This document shows, piece by piece, positions 35,685 through 64,000 of a stretch of 64,000 nt of DNA. The translations under genes and the position numbers were made by a program. Origin of the DNA: Tricharina praecox (lineage: Eukaryota); assembly GCF_024521635.1 (NCBI RefSeq), contig NW_026250448.1, positions 62,001 through 126,000 of the forward strand. Direction: 5' to 3'. Numbering within the stretch: position 1 is the first letter of the stretch; each line of letters starts with the position of its first letter. Below the pieces are notes generated by a model that ran no database searches, was not told where the DNA came from, and saw only the letters and a program-made list of their open reading frames with translations.

Positions 35685-35780
35685 TCTGGAGACATGTCGC
35701 CGTCGAAATGATCAAGGAACTCACATCCATCACCTACGGGCCGAGTCGGATCCAACATCCTCACGAGATAGCTCATCACA

Positions 35781-38804: not shown

Positions 38805-40907
38805 CTACTTCAAGCCTCGCAATTGCATCCACTCATCGACAATTCTTCGATAATGACTGGCCTGATACGGTAGAAAGAAGTCCTTCAACACGCTCTTGAT
38901 CCGCCGCGGCTGCACACCCAACTGCATCAGCAGCGCATCAATCTTCTAATAATCACCGCATTAATTAGCTGGCTCGAACCCCGTCAGGTGCTCGCTTCGG
39001 AACATACCGGCAACCACTCAAAGAGAGCGTACGTTCCATACACACCCGCGACCGTGTATCGTCGCCGACCGAAGGCGACGCGTATCGCAATTTCCCATTC
39101 GATTTCTGCTTGGGATACCCCGAGCTCGTCGAGTGATAGGTTGTCGGTGAGCCATGCGACACCCCAGAGCGCCGACGGGCCGGAAAAACTGTCGCGGGTA
39201 TCAGCTGCGGAGTACTTGATCGGGCATGGGAGTGGGGTTAACTATGTACGTACATGGCAGTACTCGCGACTCCAACTGCGCCGGCAAACACCAGCGATCG
39301 GTCGTTTTTCCGCGCTAGCTCCGGCGGCAGGATATCCTTGTAGAGGCGGCACGGCGCGTTCTTCACCGGCTTATTATTCGGCATCGGCGGATTCGCGAGC
39401 CGCGGGAACAACCGAACGACCTCCTGGTCAGCCAACATGTCGAGATTATCCCACTTCTCCCTGAGATGCGGCGGATACGTCGCAAGATCCGTCACTACGC
39501 CGAGCTCGGCCGCGAGCTCGGGGGAGTATATCGGCTCGCTCTTATTGTATCCCGTCGCGAACACGACGGCGTCGGTGTGGAGTCGTTCACCGTCCGAAAG
39601 GACCACATACGTGCCCTCCAGTGCGGTGATCTCCGACCGGATCACTTTCACCTTCTCGCCGCTGTGGATGAAGGCGATACTTTCGGGCTGGTTGGTAATC
39701 GAGGCTAAGAAGACGCCGTTGGCAACATGTTAGCGGCTCCGACTATCCGTGATAATGGACCTGGTGATATGAAGTTGCACATACTCGGTACATTCACCCA
39801 GAAAGCACTGAAGAGGCTGCGTGTTAGAAACATGCGACCCTGTACATAGTCCGTGGGAAAAGATGTGAACGCACGCATGGTCGACGTTCTTCGGCCTAAG
39901 CCTAGCCATATTCTCGCTCTTATCATATCCCGCGTACGCCATGAGAATGCTGCTGAGCCAACCCCAGTACTTCCAGTGCAGCCAGTATCCAAGGCCACTC
40001 CCGGAATGCAAGAACCGATACCACCAGCCTTCGCAACTATCCAGCTGCGGCTGCAGCATCGCTCCCATGCGCGAGGAGATGACGTCGTTAGTGTTCCTTC
40101 CGAGAATGTCTGCCGCTAACTGCGGCGCCGCGCCGTTGCCGACCGAGTCCGGCCGGATGATCCAGTTCACCTGTTTCCCGTTCTTGACGCACATGTACAT
40201 GGCGTCAATCGCGGACTTTCCCCCGCCGTAGATGGTGATCGTGCTGACCTCCGGAGAGGTCAGCCACGCGTAGTGGGCGCCGAGCTCGCGCGTGTGAAAA
40301 GCCGGGGGCTCGAAGCCGGTTGTGTCGAGCTCGGGAAGCGACGGATTCGAAGTGAGTCCGGTTCCGACGATGACCTTGTCGAAGGTCGAGGGCGCAGTAT
40401 CCCCCTGAATCCATATATTCCATCCGCCCCCCGTGGCACGCTCGAGCTTAGTCACTTTGGCGTTGAACCGGATGCGCTCCTTGATGCCAAACCTTACGGC
40501 GTACTGCTCCATGTGCTCCTGCAGCTTTTCGGCGGGGATGAAGGTCGTGTGCGGATCGGCTACGCCGGTCGTGTCCATCGGGAAGTCGGAGTACTCATAC
40601 ACGCCGTATTTCTGCTGTGCCCGGAGTGTCGGATAGATTCGTCGCCGGCTCCAAGTCCCGCCGAGCGAATCTTCCGCTTCGAGGACCGTGAGTGAGATTG
40701 TAGGATCCACTTGGAGGTATCTAGGATAGGACGTTAGCCGTCGGGATATGAACCGCGGGAAGCTGTGCGATCTCACGTTTTGGCGGCCTCGAGGCCGTAG
40801 AAGCCTGTGTCCGACGGTTTTGTTAGCTACTGCTACTGACTTGGCTCGGGGTCGGTGTTACCTGCGCCAATCACGCAGACTCTGGTCGTCTTGTTGTCGA
40901 TTGCCAT
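38805..40907 (-). CDS. Flavin-containing monooxygenase (FMO-like, class B FAD/NADPH), multi-exon
   Basis: Spliced N-terminus MAIDNKTTRVCVIGAG|FYGLEAAKT|YLQ (FAD GxGxxG), LGGTW, FMO-like FEPPAFHTREL, YGGGKSAID (NADPH), FATGY; last exon ends LRGLK* at 38805. Confidence 0.88.
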
Positions 40908-42483: not shown

Positions 42484-43827
42484 TCACATAGCTATCCCAA
42501 TCTTACGCCGTCGCCACCCAGTGCCTTTCGGATTCCCATACCCATCACGAGGACGTCCTGCCTCACCGCTCGTCTCCAAAAACTTATCCGCCGTCTTAGT
42601 CAATGATTCCACCAAAACGCCGACACGAACACGCGGCCGTGACCTTTCTCTGCGGCTCCGCCCTCCTTGCTCGTATGAATGCCATTTCGGTTCCGGCCTT
42701 CGCAAGATGGCGATGGGCTCTTCCTCCACGCCACCCGAGTGCATGCGTCGCGAGCTACTGCGGTAGTTGCCGAGATCGCCGTCGTAGTGGTCGCCGTCGT
42801 TGCCGCCGTGCCAGTGCCTCGTTCTAGGCCCACGCAGGATCTCAACGCGCGGTTCATCGGCGGTGCCCGAGTGAAATCGTGCGGACGAGCTGCGGTGGGG
42901 ATGGCCGTCGTCGTACCGCTCGTCTCGGTAGTTCTGGCTGTCTGGACGGTACAGGTGGCTGTGGACCGGTGCGCGCAGGATCGCGACCGGCGTTTCGTCG
43001 ACGTCGCGGGAGTGCATGCGTCTCGAGTCGCTTCGGCGCGTGTGGGGATGGTGCGTCTCGCTCCCGCCATCCCTGTAACCGTGCGTCTGAGAGTAGTACG
43101 CGTCGCGCTGCGTGGGTGTTCGTAGGATCTCGACCCGTTCTGCATCGCGGTACTGCGAGGACCAGGGTCGTGAGTCCTGTGTGGGGTGGTGCGGGTCTAC
43201 TCCGTCGTCGTGGTCTTCATTGACATCTGTGAGCGGGTGGCGGCGAGATGTGTATGTATGATGGTGGTGCAGTGCCGGCCCCCGCTGGATCGCGATGGTC
43301 TCCCCGTCCGTGTAGTCCCAACGCCGACGAGCAGCCGAGGAAACGCGGTAGTGATGTTCGTCCAGCTCCACGTCGCGAGTGTGCGATGGCAACGGCCATT
43401 CCCGCCTCATGTGATCCGGCTGCCGGTAAGCGAGGTCGTCGCCGGTCCGCGCATACTCCCAAACGCTATCATTGTCGTCGTAGTCCTCATAGTCGTCGTC
43501 GTCGTCGTCCGAATATGAGCCCTCAGAGTATTCCTCCATATCCTCCCCGTCTACGGGATATCTCTGTCCGCCCGGTGTCCCAACCTGAATGGGCCGGCGA
43601 TCTGCGTATCTGTGTTCGGTGGCGGTAACGTTGTACGCGTACGGAACGGTGGATGCTGGCTGGCGCCGTCCCTCTTCTCTGTCCTGGTGCACTGGAAGCT
43701 CCTATTCCGGCGGGACTTGGGTGAGTACTGCAATCACATTTTCAAGCTAGTTGCGGGGCGTGAACGGACGACTTACTGGCTCGAAAACAGAGACGTACTG
43801 GACTTGCGGCGGCACTTGAGAAAACAT
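42484..43827 (-). CDS. His/Arg/Asp-rich low-complexity protein with five [VI]x[I][LQ]RxP repeats (P1), 2 exons
   Basis: Exon 1 43827-43777 (MFSQVPPQVQYVSVFEP|gtaagt), acceptor aatag, exon 2 43701-42484 open. Paralog at 45163-46487. Confidence 0.72.
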
Positions 43828-45162: not shown

Positions 45163-46487
45163 CTATTGATGTGGTGGAGAAAAGCCGGGAGTCAAAATGG
45201 GTCGCAAAGGTGTCGGTTTAAGGAGTCTCCAACCATGTGACTGCCATTTCGGTTCCGGCCGCCGCAGGATCGCGACGGGCTCTTCCCCCACGCAACCCGA
45301 GTGCGTGCGGTTGTTATGGTCGCCGTCGTTGCCACCGTGCCAATGCGTCGTTCTCGGCCCGCGCAGGATCTGAACGCGCGGTTCATCAGCGGTGCCCGAG
45401 TGATTTCGTGCGAACGAGCTGCGGTCGTCGTCGTACCGGTCGTCTCGGTAGTTCTGGCTGTTTGGACGGTACCGGTGGCTGTGCACCGGCACGCGTAGGA
45501 TCGCGACCGGCCCCTCGTTCACGTCACCGGAGTGCGTGCGTATCGAGTCGCTCCGGCGCGTGTGGGGATGATCCGTCTCACTCCCGCCTTCCCTGTAACC
45601 ATGCCTCCAAGAGTTGTACGCGTCGCGCGGCCAGGGCGTTCGCAGGATCTCGACCCGTTCTGCATCGCGGTGCCGCGAGGACCGTAGTCGCGAGTCCAGC
45701 GGGCGGTGGTGCGGGTCTGGTCCGTCGTTGTTGTCTTCATTGACATCTGGGAACGGGTGGTGGAGCAATGTGTATGCATGATGGTGGTGTTGTGTTGGCC
45801 CGCGCTGGATCGCGATCGTCTCTCCGTCGGCGTCCGCGTACTCCCCGCCATTCCGCGCAGCCGACGAAACTCGGTAGTGGCGTTCATCTGGGTCCACGTC
45901 GCGACTGTGCGATGGTGTCGGCATCAGCGTCGGCGTTCTCCGCGTCACGGGACGCGGCATCCAGTAAGAGAACTTGTCGCCGACCCGCACATACGCCCAA
46001 ACGCTATCATTGTCGTCGTAGTCCACATAATCGTCGTCGTCCTGAAAAAAAGTCCTCAGAGTATTCCTCCGTATTCTCCCTGTCTGCGGGATTTCTCTGC
46101 CCGCCCGGTGTCCAAACCCGACTGGGCCGGCGCTCATTCCAGCCTCGCCCCTCATGCGTCCCGTAGGGCGAGCCGTAACTCCGCACTCCGGGGTCGTATC
46201 CTGGAGGGCGGTAAGGATCCGGCCGTGAACCATCGCTGGTGTCGGGCAGTCGCTCTCCGTATCTGAGTTCGACGGCGGTATTGTCGTGTGGAACAGTGTG
46301 TGCAGGCTGGCGCCGTCGTACTCCTCCGTCGTGGCCAACAGGAAGTTCCTATTCCGACGGGGACTTGGTGAGTACTACTAGATCTCAACTTGGGCGTACG
46401 ATAGAACAGACGACTTACTGGCTCGAAAATAAGGATATACAGGACTTGCGGCGGCACTTGAGAAAAAATCGGAGCGGTTGGAATCAT
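45163..46487 (-). pseudogene. Tandem duplicate of P1 (P2), frameshifted or degenerating
   Basis: The ATG homologous to P1 is ATT (new in-frame ATG at 46487). The P1-homologous frame (ELPVGHD..TPGGQR..EEYSE) shifts by one base at or next to the T7 run (46045-46051) before DDDDY..VW; the C-terminus is diverged. Confidence 0.6.
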
Positions 46488-47001: not shown

Positions 47002-49366
47002 ATGCAAGCATCACAACAGCTTCAGGTACCAACCAACGTCGCCGACACGACGCAAGCCTCGCAACATCTCCGACCGCCGACGGCAACGGATGGTGAACCA
47101 GCTAGGCCGCACTCCCGCAATCGCTCGCGACGGTCTTCAGCATCATCGCCTGCTGGCGGTAGGCCCAGGTCGCGCAACCGGTCCCGCGACTCGAGATTGC
47201 CGCCTTCGTCGACGGCAACGCCGCCGTGGCCGACGTCTCGCAGTCGTGTACTGAGCCCAGCCGCGCGCAAATGGACTACCACTCGGATTTTGATCAAGGA
47301 GCCCCAGAATCGATGGCCGTTTGCGTTGAAGACGCACATGCCCGAATTGTGCGAGATATCTCTCCTTTTTTTTTCCCGCCTGGTGCTACTCGGAGGCTAA
47401 TTCGTCGTGCTCGTAGGGACGATGTTGATCAGTTAAGAAGCGCAATGCGGGGTCAGCAGGGACGCGGCCTCTGGTTGTTCGGAAAGGAGACTGGTGTTGC
47501 CGTCGTCCGAACCCTTCCGGACGATACTATCGAGGCCAGCTTCCGCGGAGCGCGGGGACTCATGAAATGTTTCGAGTCTGTGAGTGTCATGAATGTCTGG
47601 GAATCCTCCGATAACTATGGAGAGACTGACGGGCGGAGGGGGGCAATGATTAGACTGCACCAAAGTTCGAACTCTTGTACGCATTCCCCCACCCTCGAAA
47701 ACACCATAATCTTGGCGATCATTCGATTCGCCGCTCACCCGACGCTGTGAATGCTAAGATGTTGCCTTTCCCGCAGCTACATCACCATGACCGCGCAAGG
47801 AAGACTCCGTATAGAAGTCGATATCTTCAAGCGACTCGCATTGTGTTACGAGCTACCGGTGGCTTTCATCAAGATGCTGATCGGCCACAGCCGGCAGCCG
47901 CCTCATGCTGGCTTCGGAAGCAGGTTGCAGCCCGTCGGACCGGCAGGCGACCTGATACAAGGTATGTACCTACCTTGCCTGTGCGCGGAGAAAAAACAGC
48001 ACGAGTCGAGTGAAAATACCCCTCCCCTGGGGGAATTAACGTCTCTAGACTTCTGGTACACACTCCCGATCCGTCTTCCAATGGCGTGCACCGACCCGGA
48101 GAACGCGCACCGAGACTGGCACACGGGGATCTACCAGATCAACGCATTCAACCACCTGCACCTTCACAAGCAGAAATCCGACCTCCGTCACTTCGATCTC
48201 GTCATCCTCTCGCGGCACGACCTGGCCAACAAGAAGTCCACCGTCATCTGCGTCAACCTGCATTCGCGCACTCCCGGCCCGATCGAAGTCATACAGCAAC
48301 GCGTCCTCCGTGCCCTTGAAGACGGCGGTACACAGATGATCGACCGCAATCCGCTGTGGGCTAATGTCGTGTATATCGATCAGGTGCTGGAGTGGTGGAA
48401 GGTTACGTTCGAGTTCTACGCCGCGGAGCTGAATACCTATGTATGTGCGACCTAGAAAGACGCGCAATAGCGGGAGAAGCTGATGCTGCTGAGGTAAACA
48501 GGAGAAGCAGATCGAAGACAAGATGACTGCGCAAGCCAAGCCCAAGCCGCGACCGCCACCAACCGGCAAAACACCACAGATGCTGGCGGACGAGATGTTG
48601 GAAAAGACGCGGATATCGACGGAAATGCTGGAGACGAATCGCGCGCTGCACGCCATGGCATCCCACTGCTTGCGCTACAAGACGGAGCTCGTCACCGTCG
48701 CGACCGTCGTCGTGGCTGTCATGGAGCAGCATGAGGAGATATCCGAACAGCTAAAGCTTGGACAGTTCGAGAGGGATAGGGTCAGGAGGGCGTTGAAGCA
48801 ACAGCTCGCCGAGGTCACCGCCATCACACGGTCGCAGGAGGAGTTGGCGAAGAAGACGGAGAATACGCTAGCGTTGGTTAGTCATCAACTCACGCCCTCG
48901 CCGGTCTTTCTGTTTGTTGCGCGCTCATCAAGGTCTTGAAACCAGTTATTCCACTCCGTCCAAGCCGACTACGACCAGCAACAGATCGTCAACGGCGACG
49001 AGCTGCAAAAGATCTCTCTCGCCAGCCAGGACGAGGTGAAGCAGACGCGAAAGGACAGTCTCGCGATGAAGACCATTGCCGTGATGACAATGTTTTTTCT
49101 TCCGGGGACGAGTATCGCCGTAAGTCCTTCCACCGTTTCCGCCACCATCTTTCTTCGTACACCCGAGTGTTGACTGTTATGTAAAGGCTATTCTGGCGCT
49201 ACCGTACTTCCAGAGCACGGTAGCCCACAGGACGCTGTGGCTGTGGGCAGTGCTGGCAGCAGCGATGACTGGCATCGTCCTCGGTCTCTACCATCTGCTC
49301 TCGAAGGGCGCGTCTGAGCGGCACAGGAAGGAGAATGCGGTTGTGGATCCGGAGAAACAGGAGTGA
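47002..49366 (+). CDS. CorA-like C-terminal membrane protein, subfamily 2 copy C (multi-exon)
   Basis: Spliced ..WPFALKTHMPEL|DDVDQ..TAPKFELF|YITMT..FWYTLPIRL..MIDRNPLW..helical stalk..MKTIAVMTMFFLPGTSIA|AILALPYF..LWLWAVLAAAMTGIVLGLY..TGA at 49364-49366. Start codon uncertain. Confidence 0.8.
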
Positions 49367-51420: not shown

Positions 51421-53489
51421 GATCGTCCTCCCCGCGTCGGAGTCTCCGTTGTGGGGAATAAGTTTGTGCGGCTCAGTCCGCTGTAGTACCATATGCATTA
51501 CCCCGCCCCTAGATTTGGGGGATAGGGTTACACCCAGAAGAACAACTTCATAGTATGGCGGCCATCAATATCGATTGGCTTTGAAGCCTTCTCCTGATGA
51601 TCCGCCGATTCCGTGCAGGTTGGGCTGATTGCTCCCATTACGCGAGGCCGCGAAAATGCGCACACACCATCCGTGTACTGGATACCGCATCACTCGTAGA
51701 TTCCACTGTTAGTCAAGTACTATGGCGCCGTCATCCGAATGAGAACCTGTGAATGTTACGATACGCAGCTGTGGCGGAGTGATGGAGGATAGGCTGTCGG
51801 CGAGAGGAGGACGTGAAGGCGGCCTCCTTTCGGCGGGAGTGAACGAATGTGGTTAGTAGTGCGTAATATCGTTAGTCCGAATTGGAGGGATTCAACGTTG
51901 GCGGGCATGGCAGCGTCTTCCTCCCCTTCTTCTTCATCTTCATCCTCTTCATCCTTCTTGATCATCATCTACGGGATAGACAATCAACCTCTATCCCCTC
52001 TCTCATCATCTGCAGAATAGACGATCAATATTTACATCCTGTTTCCCTTGTGTGTTCACCTTCTCTCGACTCGCTTCCCGGCGTGGAGAGGCATTGGCGA
52101 AAGAGCCGTCACAAAAGCTCCTCCATCGCTCGGGCACACGTCCATAGTACACCACCCTCCCGCCCAGCCCCTCAAGATGTGTCTTATCGCAGGTCGTGCG
52201 AGTGAGTCTCAGTGCCGCGGAGTTTGGGTACGCTGGTCCCGGCGGAGACCGGCGGTGGGAGAGGGTTCCGTCTCCTCATTACGAGAATACAGTCCTCTAG
52301 CCCCACGGTCACTCTGCACGCGCGATCATGAATCTACACTACTGAACAGCGCCAACATCTACGACAGCTATGAAACCTGATGGATAAGTCGGACATAGGT
52401 ACCCGAATCCGACCTTTGCTGCTGAGTTTGAATACATCTGACTGACTGGCAGGCTGATATGCCACTGCTAATCTTGAGTAGATTCGACTGCCTCTGAACT
52501 TGCCTATCGGAACCAGAAGCAAGGTGGCCCGCCCGTACTCCGCATGAGGGCCTTGTTCTGCGGTGCCGCCCTACGCTCGCTATTTTTTGTTAGCGGATAG
52601 GTGGATAGGAGTGAAACACTTTTACTTCACCGTTGTGCTTCTAGGCAACAGCCAGGCTGCGTAACGGATGTCTCCGCGGAATCGGGCAAGTGTCACTGAA
52701 AAGCAATGAGCACCGCCGATGAGAGCGGGTCGACTCGGCAAGAAGTTCTATGGACGCACGGAGAGATTACTGGTCTTGCGTGGTTGTTGTGGTTACGAGA
52801 TATGTGCTTCATGCGGGCGGGCACAGTCTGCACACGGACTCGCCGACAGATGAACGCAGCCATTCGTTGTATTCGTAACCGACAGCAGTCCTAAGTAGAA
52901 GCACATCGTGAGCCACCGGAGCTTCTTCCCTATTGATGCGCAGTGCATGATGCGCAGACCATACATTGCACGAGGTTGCATATGGACAGCCAACGATACT
53001 CAATCATGGAGTGCAATGTTTCACTCTTCGGCGAATCATTTCCCACCATGCAGTGACGTGGTGACAGCACTGAAGTACCATGTGACACCGAATCCAGAGG
53101 CCCCCTAAATCACGGGACGGACTTTCCCGGAAATGGTCCATCCGCCCAGTTATCTGCAGGAAACGCGCATCGGGTCAACGAGAATAGTTTTCAGCTGGCC
53201 AACCTCGAAAATCATGCGGGTGGGTGGAGTTTACGTATGGTTCTCGTTTTCATTTCCTACACTCGTTCGCCCTCCATCGTGCGCCGGCACGGCATCGGAA
53301 CTGCGCACTGGCGACCACATCGAGCCGTATACATCGTGTTCACCGTCCGGGTCCCACAACAGATGATATCGCTTAAATGGGGGGAGGGGACGGACTCCTT
53401 CCGACTGTTGGAAACGCGACATCATACTCCATCTCTCACATCGACCCTCTCCATCTGGCGGAGCATCCCCCACCTCACCATATTTTGCC

Positions 53490-56400
53490 ATGGCAACAGC
53501 AAACGGAAGCGCAACTCGCAAAGGAGCACTAACTCCGAGTTATCCGATATTGACAATATCACCGGAAAGATGCACAGAAAAGCTCAAGGCATTCAGCAGC
53601 CGTCAGAAGCCGGGGTTGCTCAATTTGTTTTCCGACAGCGACTTCAAAAATTACGGGGGCAAAGGTGCGGAACTCGTCAACAGCCTGATCTCGAGAGGCT
53701 GTCCCAGAGAAATGGCGGAACAATTCTCTGTTTTGGTGCTATATGATGTGGTCATCTTGATTGGTATGTGATGTCAAACTTGCCGCACGTGATGGGAAAG
53801 AGGCCTAATCGGATACGCGAATGATCAGATAACAGCGATTCACCGGAAGCCGAGAATGCTCGAAGAGAGACGTTAAAGACATTGTTGGATGCAATTGTCG
53901 ATGTTTACGAGCTAGCCAATGACAAAGGTGTGGTCTCTGTCCGGTGCTGCAATCTCCACGACCAATGTACAGATCATAAAGACGTCCGAAGATCAGAGGT
54001 CTCTGGAATCCTCGAGACAATTAAATACGGCGAATCCGCCGAAGTTGGTGGACAGCTGAAGAAACGCATTCTGAGGCCTTTTGTCGAGCACAAAACCATG
54101 ATCAGGCCTTTACTCACTATCGTCATTACGAACGGCAATGTAAGCCATTCCCAATTGTCAGCTACTCCGAGCCCTACTGATCTGAGTACAAGCCTGAGGC
54201 GGAAACTAAGGATGTTTTGAAGACGGCCATCAACAACTGTCTCGTGAAATTGTCCCAAGACCCTACCAAAACAGAAGATGGTCGGTTCAACGATTCTTCC
54301 TGGTTCGGAGTCAAGTCGCTAATATCTTCAGCTGTGGCTTTCATGTTTGCACGAGTCGGCGGAGATCAGGCTGGCAAGGAGCTCGTAAAAGATCTTGATA
54401 ACGATCAGATCTTGGGAGCGTGGATTGATTGCCTACCGGGTAAGTGGAGAAGCGTTTGGTTACCTAAAATCTCACTAACTGGGCAATCTAGTCGAATCTC
54501 GCCTGAAAGATTTCCGTCCGTATGGTCATCGGCCTTACTGGGATGTGGTAAATATCTGGATCCCTCATCCCTGCGCGATCATAAGTTTTCATGAGCTAAC
54601 GATTCTTATCATCAGCTCTGGAAGCTTATGCTTGGAGCTCTATACAAAGTTGTACGTCGCCGTATAGCATTCTCGGACACGCAGAGCTGACTGAATCTAG
54701 ATCGACGCCATGGACGATGACTCTGAGCTCGATGAGGACTTCCTGATGCCACTAGTTTCTAGTAGACCTAAGGCTCGCAACCAATCGCGAGATAACCGTA
54801 TAGCTGTTCCTTCGGCAGGTCCGCCCCCCAAACTTCCGATGCTGGACGCACCTCACGGAGTGCGACCTTCCGCCGAATCTCGTCGTCGAATACCTGCGCC
54901 AGTGGAGGCACCTTCCCCGGAGGTCGTTCCCTACCCTGTATCGGGGGAATTACATAACGGCAGTGCGTTGAAAGAAACTCATTCGAGCATGCGTGCATCC
55001 CAGGACTCGTCACACTCTATCAACCCTCCGAAAGACCGGGATTCCGAGTATGTATCAAAGGCGACCCAGGGCAATCCTTTGCTAGAATCGCCAATTCCAA
55101 TGCCTAATTGCGACAACGAACCAGACATAATACCTGACGCCAGCCACCCGTCAACCGAAAAAGGCTTCAAGCCCTCCACGACAGCGACAGGAATAATCCT
55201 AAACCGATGGTCTACCATTCGAGATGTGGTGGGCCCACACGCCGATCACTGGCCTTCCCGCTTGAAATTTCACATGCCTGAATTGTGGGAACCACATACA
55301 CCTTGCGTCGGGGTTTACTTGACGAGCAGCACCAAGGGCTAATCAGTCACGTTCTAATAGGGATGATACACGCTTGCTGCTAAAGGCTGAGCAGCGTCGC
55401 CAAGATCACGACCCACCACTGTTCGGAAAACTTACAGCTGTTGCGGTCATGAGAACCCAAGATAATGGTTTGATAGCGGCTAGCTTCTGCGGGAAGAAGA
55501 GACTGCAGAAGTGTATCGAGGCGGCCCGGGTAAGTGCACTTGATGCTGGGATGGTGAGACAAAGACTTATGGGTCGTAGGATGAATCGACAGCACCAAAG
55601 TTTCAACTATTGTACGCAATTCCCTTCCTATGCGCCAAAGAGCGACATGATGATCTCGGGATCCCATCAGCATCTTCAATTGTTGCCAATGCTGATATAC
55701 GTTTTCGGCAGCTACATTACTATGAGCGCCACCGGAACGCTTCACATTGCCGCCGACGTGTTCCAGGAACTCGCGTTGTGCTATGATATCCCGGTGGCAT
55801 TCATCAACTCAGTACTTGACTACGGGGGTGAACCTCGGTATACCGCCTTTGGAAGTAGGCCGCCGCGTGCTGAAAAAATACAAGGTATTCTTGACCGTCC
55901 AAGGCGTGTGAGAGAGCGCCAGAATACTAACGAAACATAGTTTTCTGGTACACACTCCCGATCCGACTTGCACTGGACTGTACTACAGAGGCTGGCGGAG
56001 AACAACTTGTCGCCGATCTCACACGGGACTGTACTACAAATCATCACGGAGAACACTCAGACGCCAATCCGGGTTCCGATTACCTACATCTTGACACACA
56101 GAAAACCGACATCGGACAGTTTGACTTGGCCGTATTTTGCAGACACAATCTTCTCGAAAAAACGACGGCCGTCATTTGCGTCTACTTGTGCTCTGGCTTA
56201 CTCGAGTCAGCGGAAGTCACCAAGCAGCGAGTGCTACATGCATTGGACGACGGTGGTATGGGAATGATTGATCGGAACCCCCTTTGGGTAAACATCGTCT
56301 ACATAAGCATGGCTGTGCATTTCTGGAAGGTGACATTTGAGTATGTCGCGTCGGAGTTAAATAGCGATGTACGTGCATCATCTTGGTCACCTGTGAGCCG

Positions 56401-56761
56401 AGGGAGGGGGCCCAGCGGAAACGCTGACTGACGGCATCCAGGAGAAAGAAGTCGCGCACATGTTAGTAAATCAAGCGCAGCTTCGCGTGGTAGAGGACAC
56501 GACGTCAGCGAAATACAAAAAGCTTCATACCATGGACGCGCATTGCCAACGCTACAAGATGGAGCTTGCAACGATCTCAGCAGTGATTGTTGGGATGATG
56601 CGGGAACACAAGGTCATGTCTGAGCAGTTAAAGTTGGATGTCCATGAAGCCCAACGTGTTGGGAGCGCGTTCAAACAACAGCTTGCCGAGACTACTGCCC
56701 TCACCATGGCACAGGAGGACATGGAGAGAAGGATACGGAATCTGTTGACCGTGGTAAGTGT

Positions 56762-56832
<71 letters not shown>

Positions 56833-57385
56833 CTTTCTCAACGGCATACTGATTACCAGAATAACAGTTATTCCATTCCATCCAAGCTGCAAATGACCGG
56901 CAACAGATCGCGAATGGCAAAGCACTCCAAAAGATCTCAGTCGCCAACCAAAACGAGGTCAAACAAACGACGAAGAACAGCCGAGTGATGAAAACGATTG
57001 CCATAATGACGATGACGTTTCTGCCTGGAACCAGTGTCGCGGTAATCTTTCCAAGCTCTTCGGATGTGCTGCGGTAACTGATCCATATATTCCTCAACAG
57101 GCTCTATTCGCTCTTCCATATTTCGAGCACACCGCTGTCCATTCAACATGGTGGATATGGGCCGTGGTCGCGATAGCCTTGACCGGGATAGTTCTTGTGC
57201 TCTACCATTTCATCACGTTCGTAGCGGAGCATCGAGCCGGCGCCGAAGAAAAGGATAGTATGCTCGGCGACGAAGAGGAAGCCGGAATGGCTGGCATGAA
57301 AAGGGATCCTTCTGTGGGCGTCACTAACATCCGGAAGTATATGAAAGATTATCTCCTGTTTTATGTATTTAGGAAGAGCCTTTAG
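53490..57385 (+). CDS. Fusion protein: degenerate-MIDAS vWA9 + Pro/Ser-rich linker + CorA-like subfamily 2 copy D
   Basis: vWA exons 53490-53763, 53829-54139, 54193-54280, 54332-54439, 54492-54547, 54616-54651. Exon 7 from 54701 (IDAMDDD..) has no stop and runs to WPSRLKFHMPEL, where intron 55285-55360 sits at the same site as in copy C. Ends MKTIAIMTMTFLPGTSVA|ALFALPYF..WWIWAVVAIALTGIVLVLY..stop at 57385. Confidence 0.78.
56766..56827. repeat. (CT)n microsatellite inside an intron
   Basis: About 31 CT units following the donor gtaagt. Confidence 0.95.
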
Positions 57386-57594
57386 CAGGGGAATAAACTG
57401 TTCTGATTGAATCAAATGACGGGAATGTTCTGAAAGCGAGGACACTGCTCCGTCTCCTTACTTACTGTCGCTACCGTGTAAAGCGTGCTCGCGAGTCTAG
57501 TCGACAGCTTTCTGGAGAGTGAGATACCTAGCTTGACCGATAACTAGGTGGCCGAAAGCCTGCTCGAGAGCCTTATCGAGGGCTAGCTGGCAGG

Positions 57595-58080
57595 GACGCC
57601 GAGAGCGTGCCGGCAAGCGTTCTCGCGAGCAAGAACAAGTGCATGGTTGAATGTCTAATCAAGAGCATGACGACGAGCAGACCGAGAGCAATACGGCGCG
57701 CAAGGCCGGGAGGTTGCCGCCGAGCGGCACCTGAATTCCAATAGCATGCCGAGTGGATGACCGAGATCACTCCCGAGACCATGACGACCAGCAGGCGGAG
57801 AGCCAGATGACCAGCAAGACCGTGAGGTTGCCGCCGAGCGAAACCCAGACGCCAAGAGCGTGCCAAATGCATGACCGAGAGCACGACCGAGAGCGTGCTC
57901 TCTAGCATGCCGACGAGCAGAGCGTGAGCATGACGGCTGGCCAGCAGTTCTGTAATCATCACTGAGGCAGAGACCGAGAGACTTGCCGAGTGTATCACCG
58001 GCAGAGTGTAGACGGGTATACCGTCGAGGGTGCCCGAGCGCGTGCCGGCGAGCGTGCCTGAGGGCGTGCTGGCAAGAGCA
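57595..58080. repeat. Degenerate short-period GC-rich repeat region (ccgagagc/gagcgtgc/gacgagcag units), probable TE relic
   Basis: Recurrent 8-12 bp units and a duplicated 'gaggttgccgccgagcg' block; no credible coding signal. Confidence 0.45.
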
Positions 58081-60627: not shown

Positions 60628-61237
60628 TGTAACGGCACGGTCGGGCAAGGCTCCAGGTAGCGAAGTAGGGCTGGGGATCGGGTTCTGGGTTCGGTAGAGG
60701 CAAGACGGGTTCAGGAGACAAGGTGAGGCAGGGCTCAGTGCAGACGGCAACTGGGAACAGAGGCAGGGACAAGGACTACGGCGCAGACGGCAGCCGAGGC
60801 AAGGACAGAGGTAACAGTGGTTGAATTAACAAGTTGTTGCGTGAAGAACTAAATACAGAGGGGCAACGGCCCGTTTATATAGAAAATCCTCCACTTCTTC
60901 CCGCAACCTGACAATGACGGTGGGCGTGTGCCAGACCCTGAGAAATCCACCTTATCAGTACCCCACTTCCGTGACTCACACCCTGCGCAGCCGCACTACC
61001 CCTGCTTCCTGCACACAGCCCCAATCTCCTGCGACTCATTGCTGCGCTATCCCTGCTTCCTGCACACAGCCCCAATCTCCTGCGACTCATTGCTGCGCTA
61101 TCCCTGCTCCCTGCACACAGCCCCCAATCCTCTGCGACTCATCCTTGCACTGCCGGTGCACTGCCTCTGCACTGCCCCCCAACTCTCCCGATCCTTGTGC
61201 CGACCCTCCCTTCGTCATTCCGTCGCGAGCCGTGACA
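60628..61237 (-). mobile_element. 3' LTR (LTR1, 610 bp) of Ty3/Gypsy element 1, with an internal 51-bp tandem repeat (~x3, 61000-61140)
   Basis: Termini TGTCACGG...CCGTTACA; polypurine tract AGGAGGGACTAC immediately upstream on the minus strand. Confidence 0.85.
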
Positions 61238-64000
61238 GTAGTCCCTCCTAAGGCTCGAGTTCCCACGAGAGCAAGTTCGACTGGTCCAGGCTGCATGGGG
61301 TATCGTCGATGGAAGTCGTCCACAGCTTGTACTTCGGTAAGGTTCTCCTCTGGTTCCCATGATGGTGCCGCGTAGCCTCTCCATTTCACCAGGTACTGGA
61401 GTTTGCCCCTGAGGTTCCGGCTGTCGAGGACCTCTTCAACCTCCCATTCTTCCTGGTCGTCCACGATTACCGGCAGTGGGGGCAGTGGAATTTGTCCAGG
61501 GAAAGGATCATCGGAGGAGGCATGAAGGAGGGATACAGGAAATGTTCGGTGCTTCTGAACGGTGTCCGGGATGTCCAATTCGTAGGCGTGGGTTCCGATT
61601 GTCCGAATCACACGGTAGGGACCATGGTGTTTGTTTTCCAGCTTGCGACTGGGTCTCTCGGTGCGCCAGTTCCGACCATCCACCCATACCATGTCGCCTG
61701 GTTGGAAGGCTGGCGCAGGGGTTCGGTGTCGGTCGGAGTCGTCCTGTTGCCGTGCCTGGGCGTACCGCATTTCGCTGCGGGCGACGTCGTGGATTTGATG
61801 CAACCGTTCCGCCGCACTCTGAGCTTGATGTTCCTCCTTGGTGTCGACACGGATATCCAGCTCAAAGTCACACCGTGGGTGGTATCCTAGGTTAGCGAAG
61901 AATGGGGACAGGGTAGTCGTGTCGGAGACCTGGTTGTTGCCAGCGAATTCGGCCAAGAACAGGTAGTCGACCCAGTCATCCTGGAGGTAGCTGACGTACG
62001 CGCGGAGGTGCTGTTCCATGACGGCGTTCATCCGTTCGGTTTGGCCGTCAGTCTGGGGGTGGAAGGCAGTCGACAGGCGTGGCTCGATCTTGAGGCATGA
62101 GCATAGGTGTTTCCAGAATCTCGAGGCAAACTGGGGACCCCTATCCGAGACGATGGTTTCTGGCAACCCGTGGTACCTGAAAATCCGGTCGCAGAACAGC
62201 TCGGCCAGTCCTTCCGAGGTGATGGTCGTGGTACATGGTAGGAGATGGCGTTGCTTGGTCAGTCGGTCAACAAAAACACAGATGGCGTCAAACCCCTTTG
62301 AGGCCGGTAAGCCAGTGACAAAGTCGACTGAGATGTGTTGCCATGGCTTCTCGGGTACTGGGAGGGGGCGCAGGACACCATAGGGTGCGTGCCGGGTGGC
62401 CTTGGTTCGCCGGCAGGTGTGGCAGTTTCGGACAAACTGGTCGACGTCCTTTCGCATCTGTGGCCAGTAGTACCTTCGAGCAAGTAGTTCCAGGGTTTTC
62501 GCGCGCCCTGGGTGCCCCATGGTCGGTGGGTCGTGGTGGTCCTGGATCAGTCGTAGTCGGAGTCGGCCGTACTCTGGAACGTAGAGGCAGTCTCGGTAGA
62601 TCAGTTGCCCGTTGACTTCGCGGCATTCGGCCAAGGAGATCTCCTTTGAATGGCGTGTACCATTTCGGAGTAGCTCGAGGATTCGATTCGGGACGGGGTC
62701 TATGTCGTAGCCTTCCGTTATCAGTGACGTGAGGAGGGGACGGTGTTGTTCGGGTGTGTTGGTTGCTGCCAACCGGAGCTCTTCCGGTAGGTTGTCTGGT
62801 TTCAGAACTGCCTGCTGGTTGTCAAGCAATCTTTCATCCCCTTCTTTAGGGAGGTCTCCTGACCTCCTGGTCAGTGCATTCGGTTTTCCTCCCGCTTTGC
62901 CTGGTCGGTAGACAATCTTGAAATGGAAACGGGAAAGGAACTCTGACCATCGCGCCTGTCGTCGGTTGAGTAGTTTCGTTGTCATGAAATACTCCAGATT
63001 CTTGTGGTCGCTTAGGACTTGGATGGGGTGAGGAGCGCCCTCCAGATGTGGTCTTCACTCCTCAAAGGCGCGGACGATTGCGAGGAGTTCTTTGTCGTAG
63101 ATCTCGTAGTTGCATTCTGCCGGGGAGTGTTTCTTGGAATAGAATGCCACTGGGTGCAGAATTCCCTCGTCGTCGTACTGAGATAGGACGCCGGCAGAGA
63201 CGTAGTCGGAGGCGTCAGTTTCCACTACTATCTGCCGATCGTAGTCGAAGTGCCGGAGGATCGGGGCCGAGGTGAATGCTGTTTTTAGTTCGTCGAATGC
63301 TTTCTGCTGTTCCGGTCCCCACACGAAGGGAACATACTTTCCATCCTCCTTCTTGGTCAATGCTGTCAATGGGGATACCACCTTGGAATAGTCTTGGATG
63401 AATCGCCGGTAGAAGTTCGCAAATCCCAGAAAGCATTGCACATCGGTGACGGTACTCGGCTCCTCCCATTCCAGTATGCAGGAGACTTTCGCTGGGTCCA
63501 TCTTGATCCCGTTTGTTGTAATGATCAGTCCCAAATACTTGACTTCCGTCTGGTGGAAATGACATTTTTCGGGTTTGAGATGTAGACCGACTGCTGATAA
63601 GGCCTGAAGTACTTTCCTGACATGTTTCCGGTGTTCATCTAAGGATCCGCTGTAAATGAAGACGTCATCGATGAATGCGGTACAGAAGCCGTCGAGGAAC
63701 GGGCGTAGCACATCGTTGATCAGAGCTTGGAAGTCGGCAGGGGCGTTGGTGAGGTCGAAGGGCATGACGAGGGATTCGAAGAGCCCGTAGCGTGTCCGGA
63801 AGGCAGTTTTCCACTCTTCTCCTTCCGCCATCCGCACAAGGTTGTAGGCACCGCGGATATCCAGGGTGGTGAAGTATTTCGCCCCGGATAGCCGCATCAG
63901 AGTTTCTTGGAGGAGTGGGAGTGGGTACCTGTTCTTGATTGTTCCTTCGTTCAGGCCCCTGTAATCCACACACAGGCGTAGGGAGCCGTCCGATTTCTTG
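61087..64000 (-). mobile_element. pol: Ty3/Gypsy chromovirus element 1 pol (RT-RNaseH-IN-chromodomain) with one in-frame stop; runs off the window
   Basis: RT DYRGLN..KTAFRT..FIDDV; RNase[45 protein letters not shown]; chromodomain EWEVEEV..YLVKWRGY. Both ORFs are in the same frame, split by TGA at 63055-63057. Confidence 0.95.

What the first reader, a model, noticed from the sequence alone, without database searches (positions are those of the whole stretch)
53490..57385. Rosetta-stone fusion of a vWA module to a CorA-like membrane protein
Seen: vWA9 has all six family introns, but its exon 7 (from 54701) continues ~195 codons without a stop and ends RWSTIRDVVGPHADHWPSRLKFHMPEL, homologous to KWTTTRILIKEPQNRWPFALKTHMPEL of CorA-like C. 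It has the same phase-2 intron and continues collinearly to the two TM helices. Inference: direct evidence that the two expanded families work together, with a cytoplasmic vWA domain regulating a membrane pore. I do not recall this architecture being described.
Basis: partly seen in the sequence, partly recalled or inferred. Interest (0 to 1): 0.8.

Follow-up and report, generated by a model that had tools for sequence, protein, structure and literature searches.

The report
vWA–CorA-like chimeric gene with splice switch
In the fungus Tricharina praecox, one copy of a repeated vWA-type gene has lost its stop codon and runs in frame into the neighbouring CorA-type membrane protein gene, and RNA data show a spliced transcript in which one optional small intron decides between the fused protein and the vWA part alone.

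Summary
From ATG 53490 to TAG 57385 (+ strand), 14 exons give one open 1009-codon frame. It reads a vWA-like module (291 aa), a roughly 195-aa linker exon, then a CorA-fold protein with two C-terminal hydrophobic helices. Spliced RNA contigs from two runs of two studies remove 12 of the 13 predicted introns outright. The thirteenth is implied by the contig's length.

New here: a further alternative 77-nt intron (55048-55124) lies inside the linker exon.
- Retained, at about two thirds and one half of depth in the two runs, it gives the fusion.
- Removed, it shifts the frame to TGA 55135-55137 and gives exactly the 410-aa vWA-only protein of the public annotation.

That annotation splits the locus into two genes and mis-splices the CorA part.

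The functional reading is weaker.
- None of 54 detectable relatives of the CorA part is long enough to be fused.
- The vWA9 metal site is degenerate.
- The 64-codon bridge would stay open by chance about one time in eight.
- Short-read contigs cannot prove single molecules.

Verdict: a real, transcribed, lineage-restricted chimeric gene. It is suggestive of, but not proof of, a vWA/CorA-like partnership.

The parts
53422..53489 (+). 5' untranslated leader (minimum extent)
   Evidence: The RNA contig of run X2 starts at 53422 and that of X1 at 53479 (table 8). The ATG is at 53490.
53490..54651 (+). vWA9 module, exons 1-6: 53490-53763, 53829-54139, 54193-54280, 54332-54439, 54492-54547, 54616-54651. 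Together 291 codons.
   Evidence: Splice model. All five internal junctions are seen in RNA contigs of X1 and X2. The translation equals residues 1-291 of public protein P0001. Pfam gives weak hits: VWA_3 E 0.0059 and VWA E 0.11, both below cut-off. The ESM Atlas places it with VWFA clusters (score 0.94, 207 of 256 features).
53828..53845 (+). Degenerate metal-site (MIDAS) start motif D-N-S-D-S-P. The Asp codon is split by intron 1. Paralogs read D-D-S-S-S-M.
   Evidence: Alignment A1 and exon translations. Further downstream, the Thr of G-T-Q-L is Gly, and the Asp of T-D-G-N is Asn, in vWA9 only.
53928..53996 (+). 69-nt in-frame stretch (GT..AG) missing from the single X2 contig and present in the X1 contig. 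It removes 23 residues (GVVSVRCCNLHDQCTDHKDVRRS) of the vWA core.
   Evidence: table 5 (joint 53925>53995, cut +2, X2 only) and contig lengths of 1219 against 1232. Translation.
54652..54700 (+). Intron 6 (49 nt, GTACGT..TAG), the junction that joins the vWA body to exon 7. If retained it would give stop TGA at about 54688.
   Evidence: The joint 54651>54701 is in one contig each of X1 (depth 28) and X2 (depth 9.14). Bin 54540-54713 leaves no depth for intron cover (hand arithmetic table 2).
54701..55284 (+). Exon 7, the fusion exon (584 nt). Three parts: 54701-54796 is the conserved start of the vWA family tail; 54797-54988 is a 64-codon bridge with no paralog counterpart; 54989-55284 is the CorA-like N-terminal region, from a likely ancestral ATG to the conserved HMPEL motif.
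   Evidence: (paralog tails end in acidic runs and a stop after 33-60 codons).
55048..55124 (+). Alternative 77-nt intron inside exon 7 (GTATGT..CAG, CTAAT 22 nt before the acceptor). Retained, it gives the fused 1009-codon frame. Removed, it gives a frameshift.
   Evidence: table 5: joint 55047>55125, depth 9.9 (X1) and 5.1 (X2). The long contigs break exactly here (table 8). The retained form is estimated at about 19.6 and 4.8 by hand from table 2. Sequence.
55135..55137 (+). TGA stop used when the 77-nt intron is removed. It ends the 410-aa vWA-only protein.
   Evidence: the translation of that isoform is identical to P0001 (BZA05DRAFT_211362, 410 aa).
55361..56753 (+). CorA-fold cytoplasmic domain, exons 8-12: 55361-55529, 55580-55611 (a 32-nt micro-exon), 55712-55884, 55941-56368, 56442-56753.
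   Evidence: Splice model. All junctions are in RNA contigs. It equals residues 3-372 of P0002. The AlphaFold model has pLDDT 80.4. Foldseek best matches, and all matches listed, are Thermotoga maritima CorA: best E 1.1e-06, probability 1.00, TM 0.52/0.62.
56754..56867 (+). Intron 12 (114 nt) holding a (CT)n microsatellite. The public model uses a different acceptor here and loses the frame.
   Evidence: RNA record 2 has 174 nt between 56752 and 57100, which equals exon 56868-57041 (table 8). The tail of P0002 is out of frame from here on.
56868..57385 (+). Membrane part, exons 13-14: 56868-57041 and 57101-57385 including the TAG stop. TM1 lies at about 56994-57041 plus 57101-57118 with an F-L-P-G-T motif. 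A-L-P-Y-F stands where canonical CorA has G-M-N. TM2 lies at about 57143-57229.
   Evidence: Hydropathy. The joint 57040>57100 is in RNA. The relatives' consensus keeps MKT..LTM.FLP.TSFAA...MPFF.
47002..49366 (+). Stand-alone CorA-like paralog ('C') used as comparator. It has its own ATG, a basic N-terminal region (net charge +11 over 89 residues), and the same phase-2 first intron.
   Evidence: Its spliced mRNA appears as loose ends table 7.

Best explanation
This is a chimeric gene. An old vWA-family paralog (vWA9) lost the acidic end and stop codon of its last exon, together with the spacer to the next gene. Its frame now runs through a 64-codon bridge into the N-terminal region of a CorA-fold two-helix membrane protein.

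The locus is transcribed as one unit from upstream of 53422. An alternative 77-nt intron in the linker exon acts as a switch.
- Retained, the mRNA encodes a 1009-aa protein. It has a cytosolic vWA-like module, about 200 disordered residues, a CorA-type cytoplasmic funnel domain and two transmembrane helices.
- Removed, the frame shifts to a stop 11 nt later and the product is a 410-aa soluble vWA protein. That mRNA carries seven downstream introns and should be a target of nonsense-mediated decay.

**Shown:** the open frame, the splice junctions, both isoforms, the CorA fold, the loss of GMN, and the degenerate vWA metal site.

**Inferred:** that single molecules span the whole unit; that the fusion protein is made; that it assembles like CorA (a pentamer), displaying five tethered vWA modules under the membrane; and that the vWA module acts as a protein-binding or sensing head for a non-Mg2+-selective CorA-type membrane part.
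For: **Sequence**
- There is one open frame of 1009 codons over 14 exons with GT..AG introns of 49-114 nt.
- Exon 7 opens with the family's own tail motif. The in-frame ATG 54710 therefore belongs to vWA9.
- The paralog tails stop after 33-60 codons.

**RNA**
- Runs X1 and X2, from two studies, hold contigs without introns, so they are cDNA. 12 of 13 predicted junctions are listed as GT..AG joints.
- The 13th junction is implied by a 174-nt stretch of the record.
- One contig runs 53479-55047 (X1, 1232 nt) or 53422-55047 (X2, 1219 nt), with introns 1-6 removed.
- One contig runs 55125-57379 (1727 nt in both runs).
- The break between them is a two-way bubble: joint depth 9.9 and 5.1, retained form about 19.6 and 4.8 by hand arithmetic. 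In each run that solution fits the two affected bins (33.68 against 33.7, and 10.59 against 10.6).
- The depths of the two halves keep the same ratio in both runs: 28 to 33.7 and 9.14 to 11.2.
- Bins holding other introns fit zero intron cover. This speaks against DNA or pre-mRNA as the source of the retained form.

**Isoforms and domains**
- The spliced isoform's product is letter for letter the public 410-aa protein.
- The CorA fold is shown. CorA-like clusters appear.
- vWA-type clusters appear. Sub-threshold vWA-type Pfam hits occur in 4 of 5 family proteins.
- vWA9 keeps an intact frame and all family introns at about 49% identity to its paralogs. It has therefore been kept as a coding gene.
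- No signal peptide-like stretch is visible at its N-terminus, so the vWA module would lie in the cytosol, on the same side as the N-terminal domain of solved CorA (orientation recalled, not checked in a call).
Against: - Contigs are assembled from short reads. A contig or bubble across two genes does not prove one molecule, as one search's own caution states.
- The CorA half is about 20% deeper than the vWA half in both runs. This leaves room for an internal start.
- ATG 54989 (MRASQD) resembles the paralog's start (MQASQQ), so a stand-alone CorA-like protein could still be made.
- If the spliced form is degraded by NMD, its share of splicing is underestimated.
- No fused relative was found. 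Of 55 proteins matched by P0002 (itself included), the longest is 561 aa, and none has more than about 130 residues before the matched part. The same database, however, holds this very locus split in two, so predicted proteomes may hide fusions.
- The bridge of 64 codons stays open by chance with P about 0.12-0.14, before a further one-in-three for frame.
- vWA9 has the lowest mean identity of the nine paralogs (48.8%) and the longest terminal branch (0.536, level with vWA5 at 0.534). It carries 4 unique changes at otherwise invariant columns, including the metal-site Thr.
- The X2 contig lacks 23 core residues of the vWA domain.
- Both runs' contigs stop at 57379, four bases before the stop codon. 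No 3' UTR cover was laid.
- My own AlphaFold model of the vWA part was poor (pLDDT 40.3).
Confidence: 0.6

Rival explanations
1. Two genes with overlapping transcripts, much as annotated. vWA9 is expressed as the 410-aa protein from the isoform that removes the 77-nt intron. The CorA-like protein is made on its own from transcripts that start inside exon 7 and use ATG 54989, keeping the 77 nt as coding sequence. The long fused frame is then a by-product of read-through and is rarely or never translated end to end.
For: - The public models are two adjacent genes of 410 and 417 aa.
- ATG 54989 opens with M-R-A-S-Q, like the M-Q-A-S-Q of the stand-alone paralog.
- The CorA half has about 20% more depth than the vWA half in both runs.
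- Every retained-form molecule would be a valid CorA-only mRNA.
- No fused relatives were found.
Against: - The vWA-half contig has depth 28 (X1) and 9.14 (X2), but the intron-removed joint has only 9.9 and 5.1. Roughly half or more of the RNA reaching 55047 from the vWA side would have to end there or go on unspliced, which is the fusion form (hand arithmetic).
- No loose ends or contig ends other than the bubble were reported between 54701 and 55125 (tables 7 and 8).
- The annotated CorA model starts at ATG 55274, cutting off the conserved motif. It is also mis-spliced at its 3' end, so the annotation is not independent evidence for two units.
- No room is left for a promoter outside coding sequence.
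Confidence: 0.25
2. A neutral or decaying accident. A deletion fused a diverging, functionally weakened vWA paralog to its neighbour. The chimera is transcribed and perhaps translated, but the vWA part adds nothing to the CorA-like protein. The 77-nt intron is a cryptic site tolerated because of nonsense-mediated decay. On this reading the fusion says nothing about a partnership of the two families.
For: - The metal site is degenerate in vWA9 alone.
- vWA9 has the lowest identity and the longest branch among nine paralogs.
- The X2 contig lacks a core strand of the domain.
- Chance openness of the bridge is not small.
- Other run-on frames occur in the same cluster. One is vWA5 into vWA6, which the public record models as a 660-aa protein. 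Another is a 470-codon open frame running into vWA7.
- No recurrence elsewhere.
- The vWA array in another fungus has no CorA-like neighbour.
Against: - vWA9 keeps 291 codons and six introns intact at about 49% identity to any paralog. This is not expected of a dead gene.
- The D-x-S-x-S start of the metal site and most invariant family residues are kept.
- The window holds nine vWA genes and three CorA-type genes together. One vWA gene (vWA8) lies tail to tail with the stand-alone CorA-like paralog. This is more association than a random neighbour would show.
- Both halves are expressed at similar depth in two studies.
Confidence: 0.15

Closest known systems
CorA Mg2+ channel of Thermotoga maritima (PDB 8tmc, 8tmd, 4eeb, 4i0u, 2iub, 3jcf and others)
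   Same: The predicted cytoplasmic domain of the CorA-like part superposes on it over 350-370 columns (Foldseek E 1.1e-06 to 1.8e-04, probability 1.00, TM 0.50-0.53 by query and 0.59-0.66 by target). Both have an alpha/beta N-domain, then very long helices, then two C-terminal hydrophobic helices.
   Different: Sequence identity is 12-14%. There is no Pfam PF01544 hit for its exons, or for 14 long relatives at E 0.01. There is no profile hit to any PDB sequence. The G-M-N signature after TM1 is replaced by L-P-Y-F. It has a long disordered N-terminal extension and here a vWA module in front. Mg2+ transport is therefore not implied.
Fungal 'CorA-like transporter domain' proteins (Pfam PF26616, as named in ESM Atlas clusters)
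   Same: Nearest clusters by language-model features (score 0.95, 198 of 256 features) and by predicted structure (TM 0.70-0.76 by query). All are Ascomycota, 375-657 aa. The 54 relatives found by phmmer are 65-561 aa and share the H.MAAHL.RY and FLP.TS motifs.
   Different: None of those relatives carries an N-terminal domain of the size of vWA9. PF26616 is not in the local Pfam copy, so membership could not be scored here. No function of this family is known to me (recall).
vWA domains, closest to vWA-TerF-like (PF10138) and VWA (PF00092)
   Same: The D-x-S-x-S motif follows a hydrophobic strand. The helix and strand pattern alternates. Sub-threshold Pfam hits occur in 4 of 5 family proteins. 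ESM Atlas neighbours are VWFA clusters, with aligned parts named VWA or vWA-TerF-like.
   Different: No hit reaches a Pfam gathering score. A 60-residue helical N-terminal region and an acidic tail are family-specific. In vWA9 the metal-site Thr and second Asp are replaced.
Exitrons: alternatively spliced introns inside protein-coding exons (concept recalled; only search listings seen)
   Same: A GT..AG intron lies wholly inside a coding exon, is partly retained in mature mRNA, and is coding when retained.
   Different: The length is not a multiple of three, so removal truncates rather than deletes. Here the choice also decides whether two ancestral genes are read as one.
Prokaryotic vWA-based conflict systems (vWA-MoxR-VMAP ternary systems) and CorA-type membrane effectors next to type III CRISPR loci
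   Same: A vWA module is coupled to varied effectors including transmembrane proteins. CorA is listed among putative CRISPR auxiliary genes (passages and a figure legend of PMC10910872). That CorA-fold proteins can act as membrane effectors is recalled, not checked.
   Different: No MoxR ATPase or VMAP was looked for or seen here. The organism is a eukaryote. There is no evidence of a defence role. The resemblance is an analogy only.

Membership tests
vWA domain superfamily (VWA PF00092 / VWA_3 PF13768 / vWA-TerF-like PF10138) | Match to a family profile at or above the curated score | tested here: not met
   P0001 scores VWA_3 17.1 bits (cut-off 27, E 0.0059) and VWA 13.1 bits (cut-off 23.8). 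Paralogs: vWA-TerF-like 20.5 bits (cut-off 29.4) and VWA 17.4 and 13.7 bits. One of five has no vWA hit. Single exons gave nothing.
vWA domain superfamily | Rossmann-like alpha/beta fold of the A domain | tested here: inconclusive
   My AlphaFold model from 5 sequences was poor (pLDDT 40.3) and was not searched. The ESM Atlas's own model (pTM 0.67) aligns to vWA clusters with TM 0.78-0.85 by target. The aligned parts are named VWA or vWA-TerF-like in 4 of 10 rows. This is a lead, not a test of mine.
vWA domain superfamily | Complete metal-ion-dependent adhesion site (D-x-S-x-S, a Thr, a later Asp) | tested here: not met
   vWA9 reads D-N-S-D-S, with Gly for the Thr (invariant in the 11 other copies compared) and Asn for the Asp. 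The paralogs keep D-D-S-S-S, G-T-Q and T-D-G (one has T-E-G).
CorA / MIT superfamily (PF01544, 2-TM-GxN channels) | Cytoplasmic alpha/beta domain plus long helical funnel with the CorA fold | tested here: met
   Model pLDDT 80.4 and pTM 0.81. 51 Foldseek matches have E at or below 0.001, and the best and all those listed are T. maritima CorA.
CorA / MIT superfamily | Two transmembrane helices at the C-terminus | tested here: met
   Kyte-Doolittle windows above 1.5 lie at residues 43-63 and 70-102 of the last two exons. RNA supports that splice form.
CorA / MIT superfamily | G-M-N (GxN) signature at the end of TM1 | tested here: not met
   The sequence reads ..F-L-P-G-T-S-V-A-A-L-F-A-L-P-Y-F... 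The relatives' consensus reads M-P-F-F.
CorA / MIT superfamily | Match to PF01544 at the curated score | tested here: not met
   There was no hit for the exons or for P0002. 0 of 14 long relatives hit at E 0.01. By contrast, the third CorA-type gene in the window (25080-25523) scores 22.7 bits, E 7e-05, cut-off 27.
CorA / MIT superfamily | Homopentamer conducting divalent cations | not testable with these tools
   No multimer model was made and no assay is possible.
Fungal CorA-like family PF26616 | Match to the family profile | not testable with these tools
   The model is absent from the local Pfam copy. Only the ESM Atlas lead is available: clusters where 58-100% of members carry PF26616.
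Rosetta-stone (fusion) pair | Both parts in one reading frame and one mature transcript | tested here: inconclusive
   The frame test is met. For the transcript, junctions and contig continuity are met in two runs, but single molecules are not shown and an alternative intron breaks the frame in a third to a half of the RNA.
Rosetta-stone (fusion) pair | The two parts occur as separate genes elsewhere, and the fusion recurs or the parts co-occur across genomes | tested here: not met
   Separate copies exist: eight other vWA genes and a stand-alone CorA-like paralog. Recurrence was not found among 54 relatives. Co-occurrence was not seen in the one other fungal locus available. Fungal genomes could not be searched.

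The most novel reading that the evidence does not exclude
The vWA family and the GMN-less CorA-like family of this cluster form a two-part system. A soluble vWA sensor or adaptor, whose acidic tail (net charge -11 to -16) docks on the basic N-terminal arm of the membrane protein (+11 in the stand-alone paralog), controls a CorA-fold pore.

In vWA9 this non-covalent link has been replaced by a covalent one. A regulated exitron sets the ratio of free vWA protein to membrane-tethered vWA-pore. This would be a splice-controlled switch for a membrane-permeabilising or signalling device, perhaps of the allorecognition or defence type seen in other expanded fungal gene clusters.
Probability: 0.15. 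Interest if true: 0.75.

Novelty: new variant of a known kind. Interest (0 to 1): 0.5.

Why it matters
The GMN-less 'CorA-like' proteins are a large family in Ascomycota. I recall no known function for them and found none in print. The vWA family clustered with them here is equally uncharacterised.

A transcribed fusion of the two, in a window holding nine vWA and three CorA-type genes, is the first concrete hint of what either might work with. It also gives a simple construct set for testing: full length, vWA-only, and CorA-only.

The locus also shows how an alternative intron whose length is not a multiple of three can decide whether two ancestral genes are read as one. Automatic annotation picked the split form and mis-spliced the membrane part, so architecture searches in predicted proteomes would miss such fusions.

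If the fusion is only a recent accident, the locus is still a clean example of chimeric gene birth by loss of a stop codon and spacer.

Tried and rejected
- **Whole genome.** None is held, so no genome-wide count of either family was possible.
- **Pfam on single exons.** No relevant hit.
- **RNA runs.** No listed holder is on record as RNA. X1 and X2 proved to be spliced cDNA only after laying them. The soil metatranscriptome runs X3 and X4 laid nothing. No cover was laid beyond 57379 or in 57498-58000. I draw nothing from that.
- **Word-index protein searches.** Searches with vWA exon 2 and with the CorA central exon ('longer') returned only the window's own annotated proteins. The 'near' search with P0001 found four relatives: three from this contig and one from a read assembly.
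- **AlphaFold of the vWA protein.** pLDDT was 40.3 from a 5-sequence alignment, so it was not used for fold search.
- **Profiles against PDB sequences.** The vWA family and CorA-like family profiles matched nothing meaningful.
- **Complex prediction.** The CorA-like cytoplasmic domain with the vWA module gave no verdict (score 0.02, mark 0.34). This is no evidence either way.
- **Metagenome scan.** The vWA alignment was used instead.
- **Earlier findings of this scan.** Nothing by place, words or sequence.
- **Literature.**
  - 'CorA-like' + 'von Willebrand' + 'fungal' gave 0 papers.
  - 'CorA' + 'vWA' + 'fusion' gave 1 paper, on CRISPR, with no such fusion in the passages read.
  - 'CorA-like' / 'Ascomycota' / 'gene family expansion' gave nothing relevant in the 12 listed.
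  - 'Tricharina praecox' returned 16 papers. None of the 10 listed deals with this locus, judging by title and abstract start.
- **Rejected reading 1.** ATG 54710 as the CorA start is rejected, because it lies in the conserved vWA tail motif.
- **Rejected reading 2.** Termination of vWA9 by retention of intron 6 is rejected, because there is no cover of that intron in either run.

Full report
**What the sequence shows**

The window is fungal, with short GT..AG introns. Protein searches name the organism as Tricharina praecox (Pezizomycetes, Pyronemataceae).

On the + strand a frame opens at ATG 53490. With 13 introns of 49-114 nt removed, it stays open for 1009 codons to TAG 57383-57385.

- Exons 1-6 (53490-54651, 291 codons) are the ninth copy in this window of a repeated family. 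tblastn finds the other eight at about 14196, 16761, 19459, 27167, 30368, 31787, 36981 and 51272 (the last on the minus strand).
- Exon 7 (54701-55284) is the critical piece. It begins I-D-A-M-D-D-D-S-E-L-D-E-D-F, which is the family's own last-exon opening (I-D-K-M-D-E-D-S-E in copy 3, I-D-K-M-D-E-D-E-G in copy 6).
- In the paralogs this tail runs on for 33-60 codons, turns strongly acidic (net charge -11 to -16) and stops.
- In copy 9 the similarity to the tails ends near 54796, the acidic end and the stop are missing, and the frame continues.
- After a 64-codon bridge with no counterpart (54797-54988) comes an in-frame ATG (54989, M-R-A-S-Q-D). It resembles the start of the stand-alone CorA-like paralog at 47002 (M-Q-A-S-Q-Q).
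- That block is followed by an intron in the same phase 2 as in the paralog.
- The remaining seven exons are collinear with the paralog (tblastn chains of E 4e-53 and 1e-45).
- They end in two hydrophobic helices.

**What the RNA shows**

One search found two runs of two studies (X1, X2) that hold about 0.7 of the stretch's words. Laid on 52800-58000, their contigs lack the introns, so they are cDNA whatever the record says.

- Twelve of my 13 junctions are listed as GT..AG joints in both runs. These include 54651>54701 (the fusion junction) and 55284>55361.
- The thirteenth (56753>56868) lies at a (CT)n repeat where rows were dropped. It is implied by 174 nt of the record between 56752 and 57100, exactly my exon 13.
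- In each run one contig carries the leader, exons 1-6 and exon 7 up to 55047 (1232 nt at depth 28 in X1; 1219 nt at depth 9.14 in X2).
- One contig carries 55125-57379 fully spliced (1727 nt; depth 33.7 and 11.2).
- The break between them is not a gap. It is a bubble caused by a fourteenth, alternative intron, 55048-55124 (77 nt, GTATGT..CAG, with a CTAAT 22 nt before the acceptor).
- The joint that removes this intron has depth 9.9 (X1) and 5.1 (X2).

By hand, from the bin depths of table 2 and allowing 30-nt overlaps of neighbouring contigs, the retained form comes out at about 19.6 (X1) and 4.8 (X2). Each value satisfies both affected bins (33.68 against 33.7, and 10.59 against 10.6). The ratio of retained to removed is therefore about 2:1 and 1:1.

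The same arithmetic fits zero cover for other introns (bins 53670-53843, 54540-54713, 55236-55409). The retained 77 nt is therefore not DNA or pre-mRNA carry-over, and intron 6 is not retained.

Removing the 77 nt shifts the frame to TGA 55135-55137, and the product is then a 410-aa vWA-only protein. In that isoform the CorA frame upstream of the joint is open only from 54972 and holds no ATG (read by hand). The next in-frame ATG is 55274.

**The public annotation**

The record holds two adjacent models.

- P0001 (BZA05DRAFT_211362, 410 aa) is letter for letter the intron-removed isoform.
- P0002 (BZA05DRAFT_211371, 417 aa) starts at ATG 55274 (M-P-E-L), cutting through the conserved block. 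It takes another acceptor at the (CT)n intron, so its last 45 residues are out of frame and the membrane helices are lost. The RNA contig contradicts that splice.

The fused reading is therefore not in the public record, and the annotated split is not independent evidence against it.

**What the two parts are**

*CorA-like part.*
- The local Pfam copy finds nothing, and profile searches of PDB sequences find nothing.
- An AlphaFold model of P0002 built on 46 sequences is good (pLDDT 80.4, pTM 0.81).
- The best Foldseek matches in the PDB, and all those listed, are Thermotoga maritima CorA (best E 1.1e-06, probability 1.00, 350-370 aligned columns, TM 0.52 by query and 0.62 by target, 12-14% identity).
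- The ESM Atlas puts it with Ascomycota clusters named CorA-like (PF26616), at 0.95 and 198 of 256 features.
- After TM1 the G-M-N signature is replaced by L-P-Y-F (M-P-F-F in the relatives' consensus).
- It therefore has the CorA fold but fails the sequence definition of the Mg2+ channel family. I file it as CorA-fold and make no claim of Mg2+ transport.

*vWA part.*
- Four of five family proteins give sub-threshold vWA-type Pfam hits (E 0.0006-0.076), and none reaches a cut-off.
- The Atlas's neighbours are VWFA clusters (0.94, 207 features), with aligned parts named VWA or vWA-TerF-like.
- My own model failed.
- The family shows D-D-S-S-S-M, G-T-Q-L and T-D-G-N, the three elements of a metal site. 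Copy 9 reads D-N-S-D-S-P, G-G-Q-L and T-N-G-N.

**Is the fusion more than a local accident?**

*Against.*
- phmmer of P0002 against 1.84 billion representatives finds 55 proteins (itself included). The longest is 561 aa, and none has more than about 130 residues ahead of the matched part, so none can hold a vWA module. The caveat is that the same collection holds this locus split.
- A metagenome scan with the vWA alignment found one other fungal locus (two samples, L001 and L002). It has three tandem vWA genes and no CorA-like match in 15.4 kb.
- Copy 9 is the most divergent of the nine. Its mean identity is 48.8% and its terminal branch is 0.536, level with copy 5. It has 4 unique changes at columns invariant in the other 11 copies compared (copy 5 has 5 such changes), among them the metal-site Thr.
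- The single X2 contig lacks 69 nt (53928-53996), which is 23 residues of the domain core.
- The 64-codon bridge stays open in 12-14% of composition-matched trials.
- Run-on frames are not rare in this cluster. Copy 5 runs into copy 6, which the public record models as a 660-aa protein. A 470-codon frame runs into copy 7.

*For.*
- Copy 9 has kept 291 codons and all six family introns intact at about 49% identity to any paralog.
- Its lineage is old, since a metagenome copy groups with copy 2 at 0.978 support.
- The window packs nine vWA genes with three CorA-type genes. These are the fused one, the paralog at 47002-49366 lying tail to tail with copy 8, and a more canonical one at about 23445-25523 with a PF01544 hit of E 7e-05.
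- The two halves of the locus keep the same depth ratio in two studies.

**How it most likely works**

*Shown.* There is one open frame. The RNA is spliced and links both halves. Two isoforms are set by a 77-nt intron. The membrane part has a CorA fold without GMN. The vWA-like head has a degenerate metal site.

*Inferred.*
- A deletion removed the acidic tail end, stop, spacer and promoter.
- The unit is now transcribed from the vWA9 promoter.
- The retained isoform is translated into a 1009-aa protein whose vWA head lies in the cytosol. There is no signal-like N-terminus. That the CorA N-terminal domain is cytoplasmic is recalled from the solved structures.
- The head is tethered by about 200 disordered residues to a CorA-type, presumably pentameric, two-helix membrane assembly.
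- The removed isoform gives a soluble 410-aa vWA protein or is degraded.

I put 0.6 on this. I put 0.25 on two overlapping units, with the CorA protein made from ATG 54989. I put 0.15 on a functionally empty accident.

The boldest reading the data allow starts from charge. The acidic vWA tails (-11 to -16) and the basic N-terminal arm of the stand-alone CorA-like paralog (+11 over 89 residues) could be the normal docking pair. The fusion would then hard-wire that pair, and the exitron would tune it.

**Comparison and verdict**

- The parts are known kinds: the vWA fold, and the CorA fold of the fungal CorA-like family.
- I did not find the combination in print or among relatives.
- The splice-dependent choice between split and fused products was not annotated.
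- This is a new variant of known kinds, restricted as far as can be seen to this species.
- It is a useful lead to the function of two uncharacterised fungal families, and a caution for architecture searches that rely on predicted proteomes.
- It is not yet 'direct evidence' that the families work together.

Interest is 0.5.

Noticed in passing
window 30368-32832 (+): vWA copy 5 runs without a stop into vWA copy 6. ORF 31409-32200 is open from copy 5's exon-6 motif, through Ser/Ala/Asn/Gly-rich repeats, into copy 6's exon 1. The public model P0003 (BZA05DRAFT_412948, 660 aa) is a partial copy 5 plus copy 6. This is a second candidate fusion in the same cluster.
   Followed up: partly
window 35772-37181 (+): A 470-codon open frame with no Pfam match runs straight into exon 1 of vWA copy 7. 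It may be a long N-terminal extension.
   Followed up: no
window 23445-25523 (+): A third CorA-type gene. Its last ORF (25080-25523) reads ..TIFLPLTFF.. and hits Pfam CorA PF01544 at E 7e-05 (22.7 bits, below the cut-off of 27). It lies between vWA copies 3 and 4.
   Followed up: partly
window 53928-53996 (+): The single contig of run X2 lacks these 69 nt (GT..AG, in frame, 23 residues of the vWA core), while run X1 keeps them. X2 also differs by T>C at 54843. This is either a strain deletion or a strain-specific intron.
   Followed up: partly
window 57379-57385 (+): The RNA contigs of both runs end at 57379, four bases before the TAG stop. Nothing was laid beyond. No loose end was reported. 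This is unexplained.
   Followed up: no
window 56773-56836 (+): A (CT)n microsatellite of about 32 units lies inside intron 12. The public gene model picks a different acceptor just after it and loses the frame.
   Followed up: yes
window 61090-63999 (-): Pol of a Ty3/Gypsy-type retroelement (RVT_1, RNase H, integrase zinc-binding and core domains, chromodomain), open over 655 + 314 codons.
   Followed up: partly
window 42487-43701 (-) and 45166-46374 (-): Two paralogous open frames of about 400 codons, rich in Arg, Pro, His and Asp. The one scanned (45166-46374) has no Pfam match. They lie just upstream of the stand-alone CorA-like paralog.
   Followed up: no
window 39241-40857 (-): A flavin-binding monooxygenase-like gene (FMO-like, E 7e-09) lies inside the vWA/CorA-like cluster.
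   Followed up: no
L001 4163-12068 (and the same in L002): Another fungus, represented by metagenome contigs from two samples, has three tandem vWA-family genes. One groups with window copy 2 (support 0.978), so the paralogs predate the split of the two fungi. No CorA-like match lies in the 15.4 kb held.
   Followed up: partly
window 55580-55611 (+): A 32-nt micro-exon (D-E-S-T-A-P-K-F-Q-L) in the CorA-like part, flanked by introns of 50 and 100 nt. It is confirmed by RNA joints and conserved in the paralog (47654-47685).
   Followed up: yes
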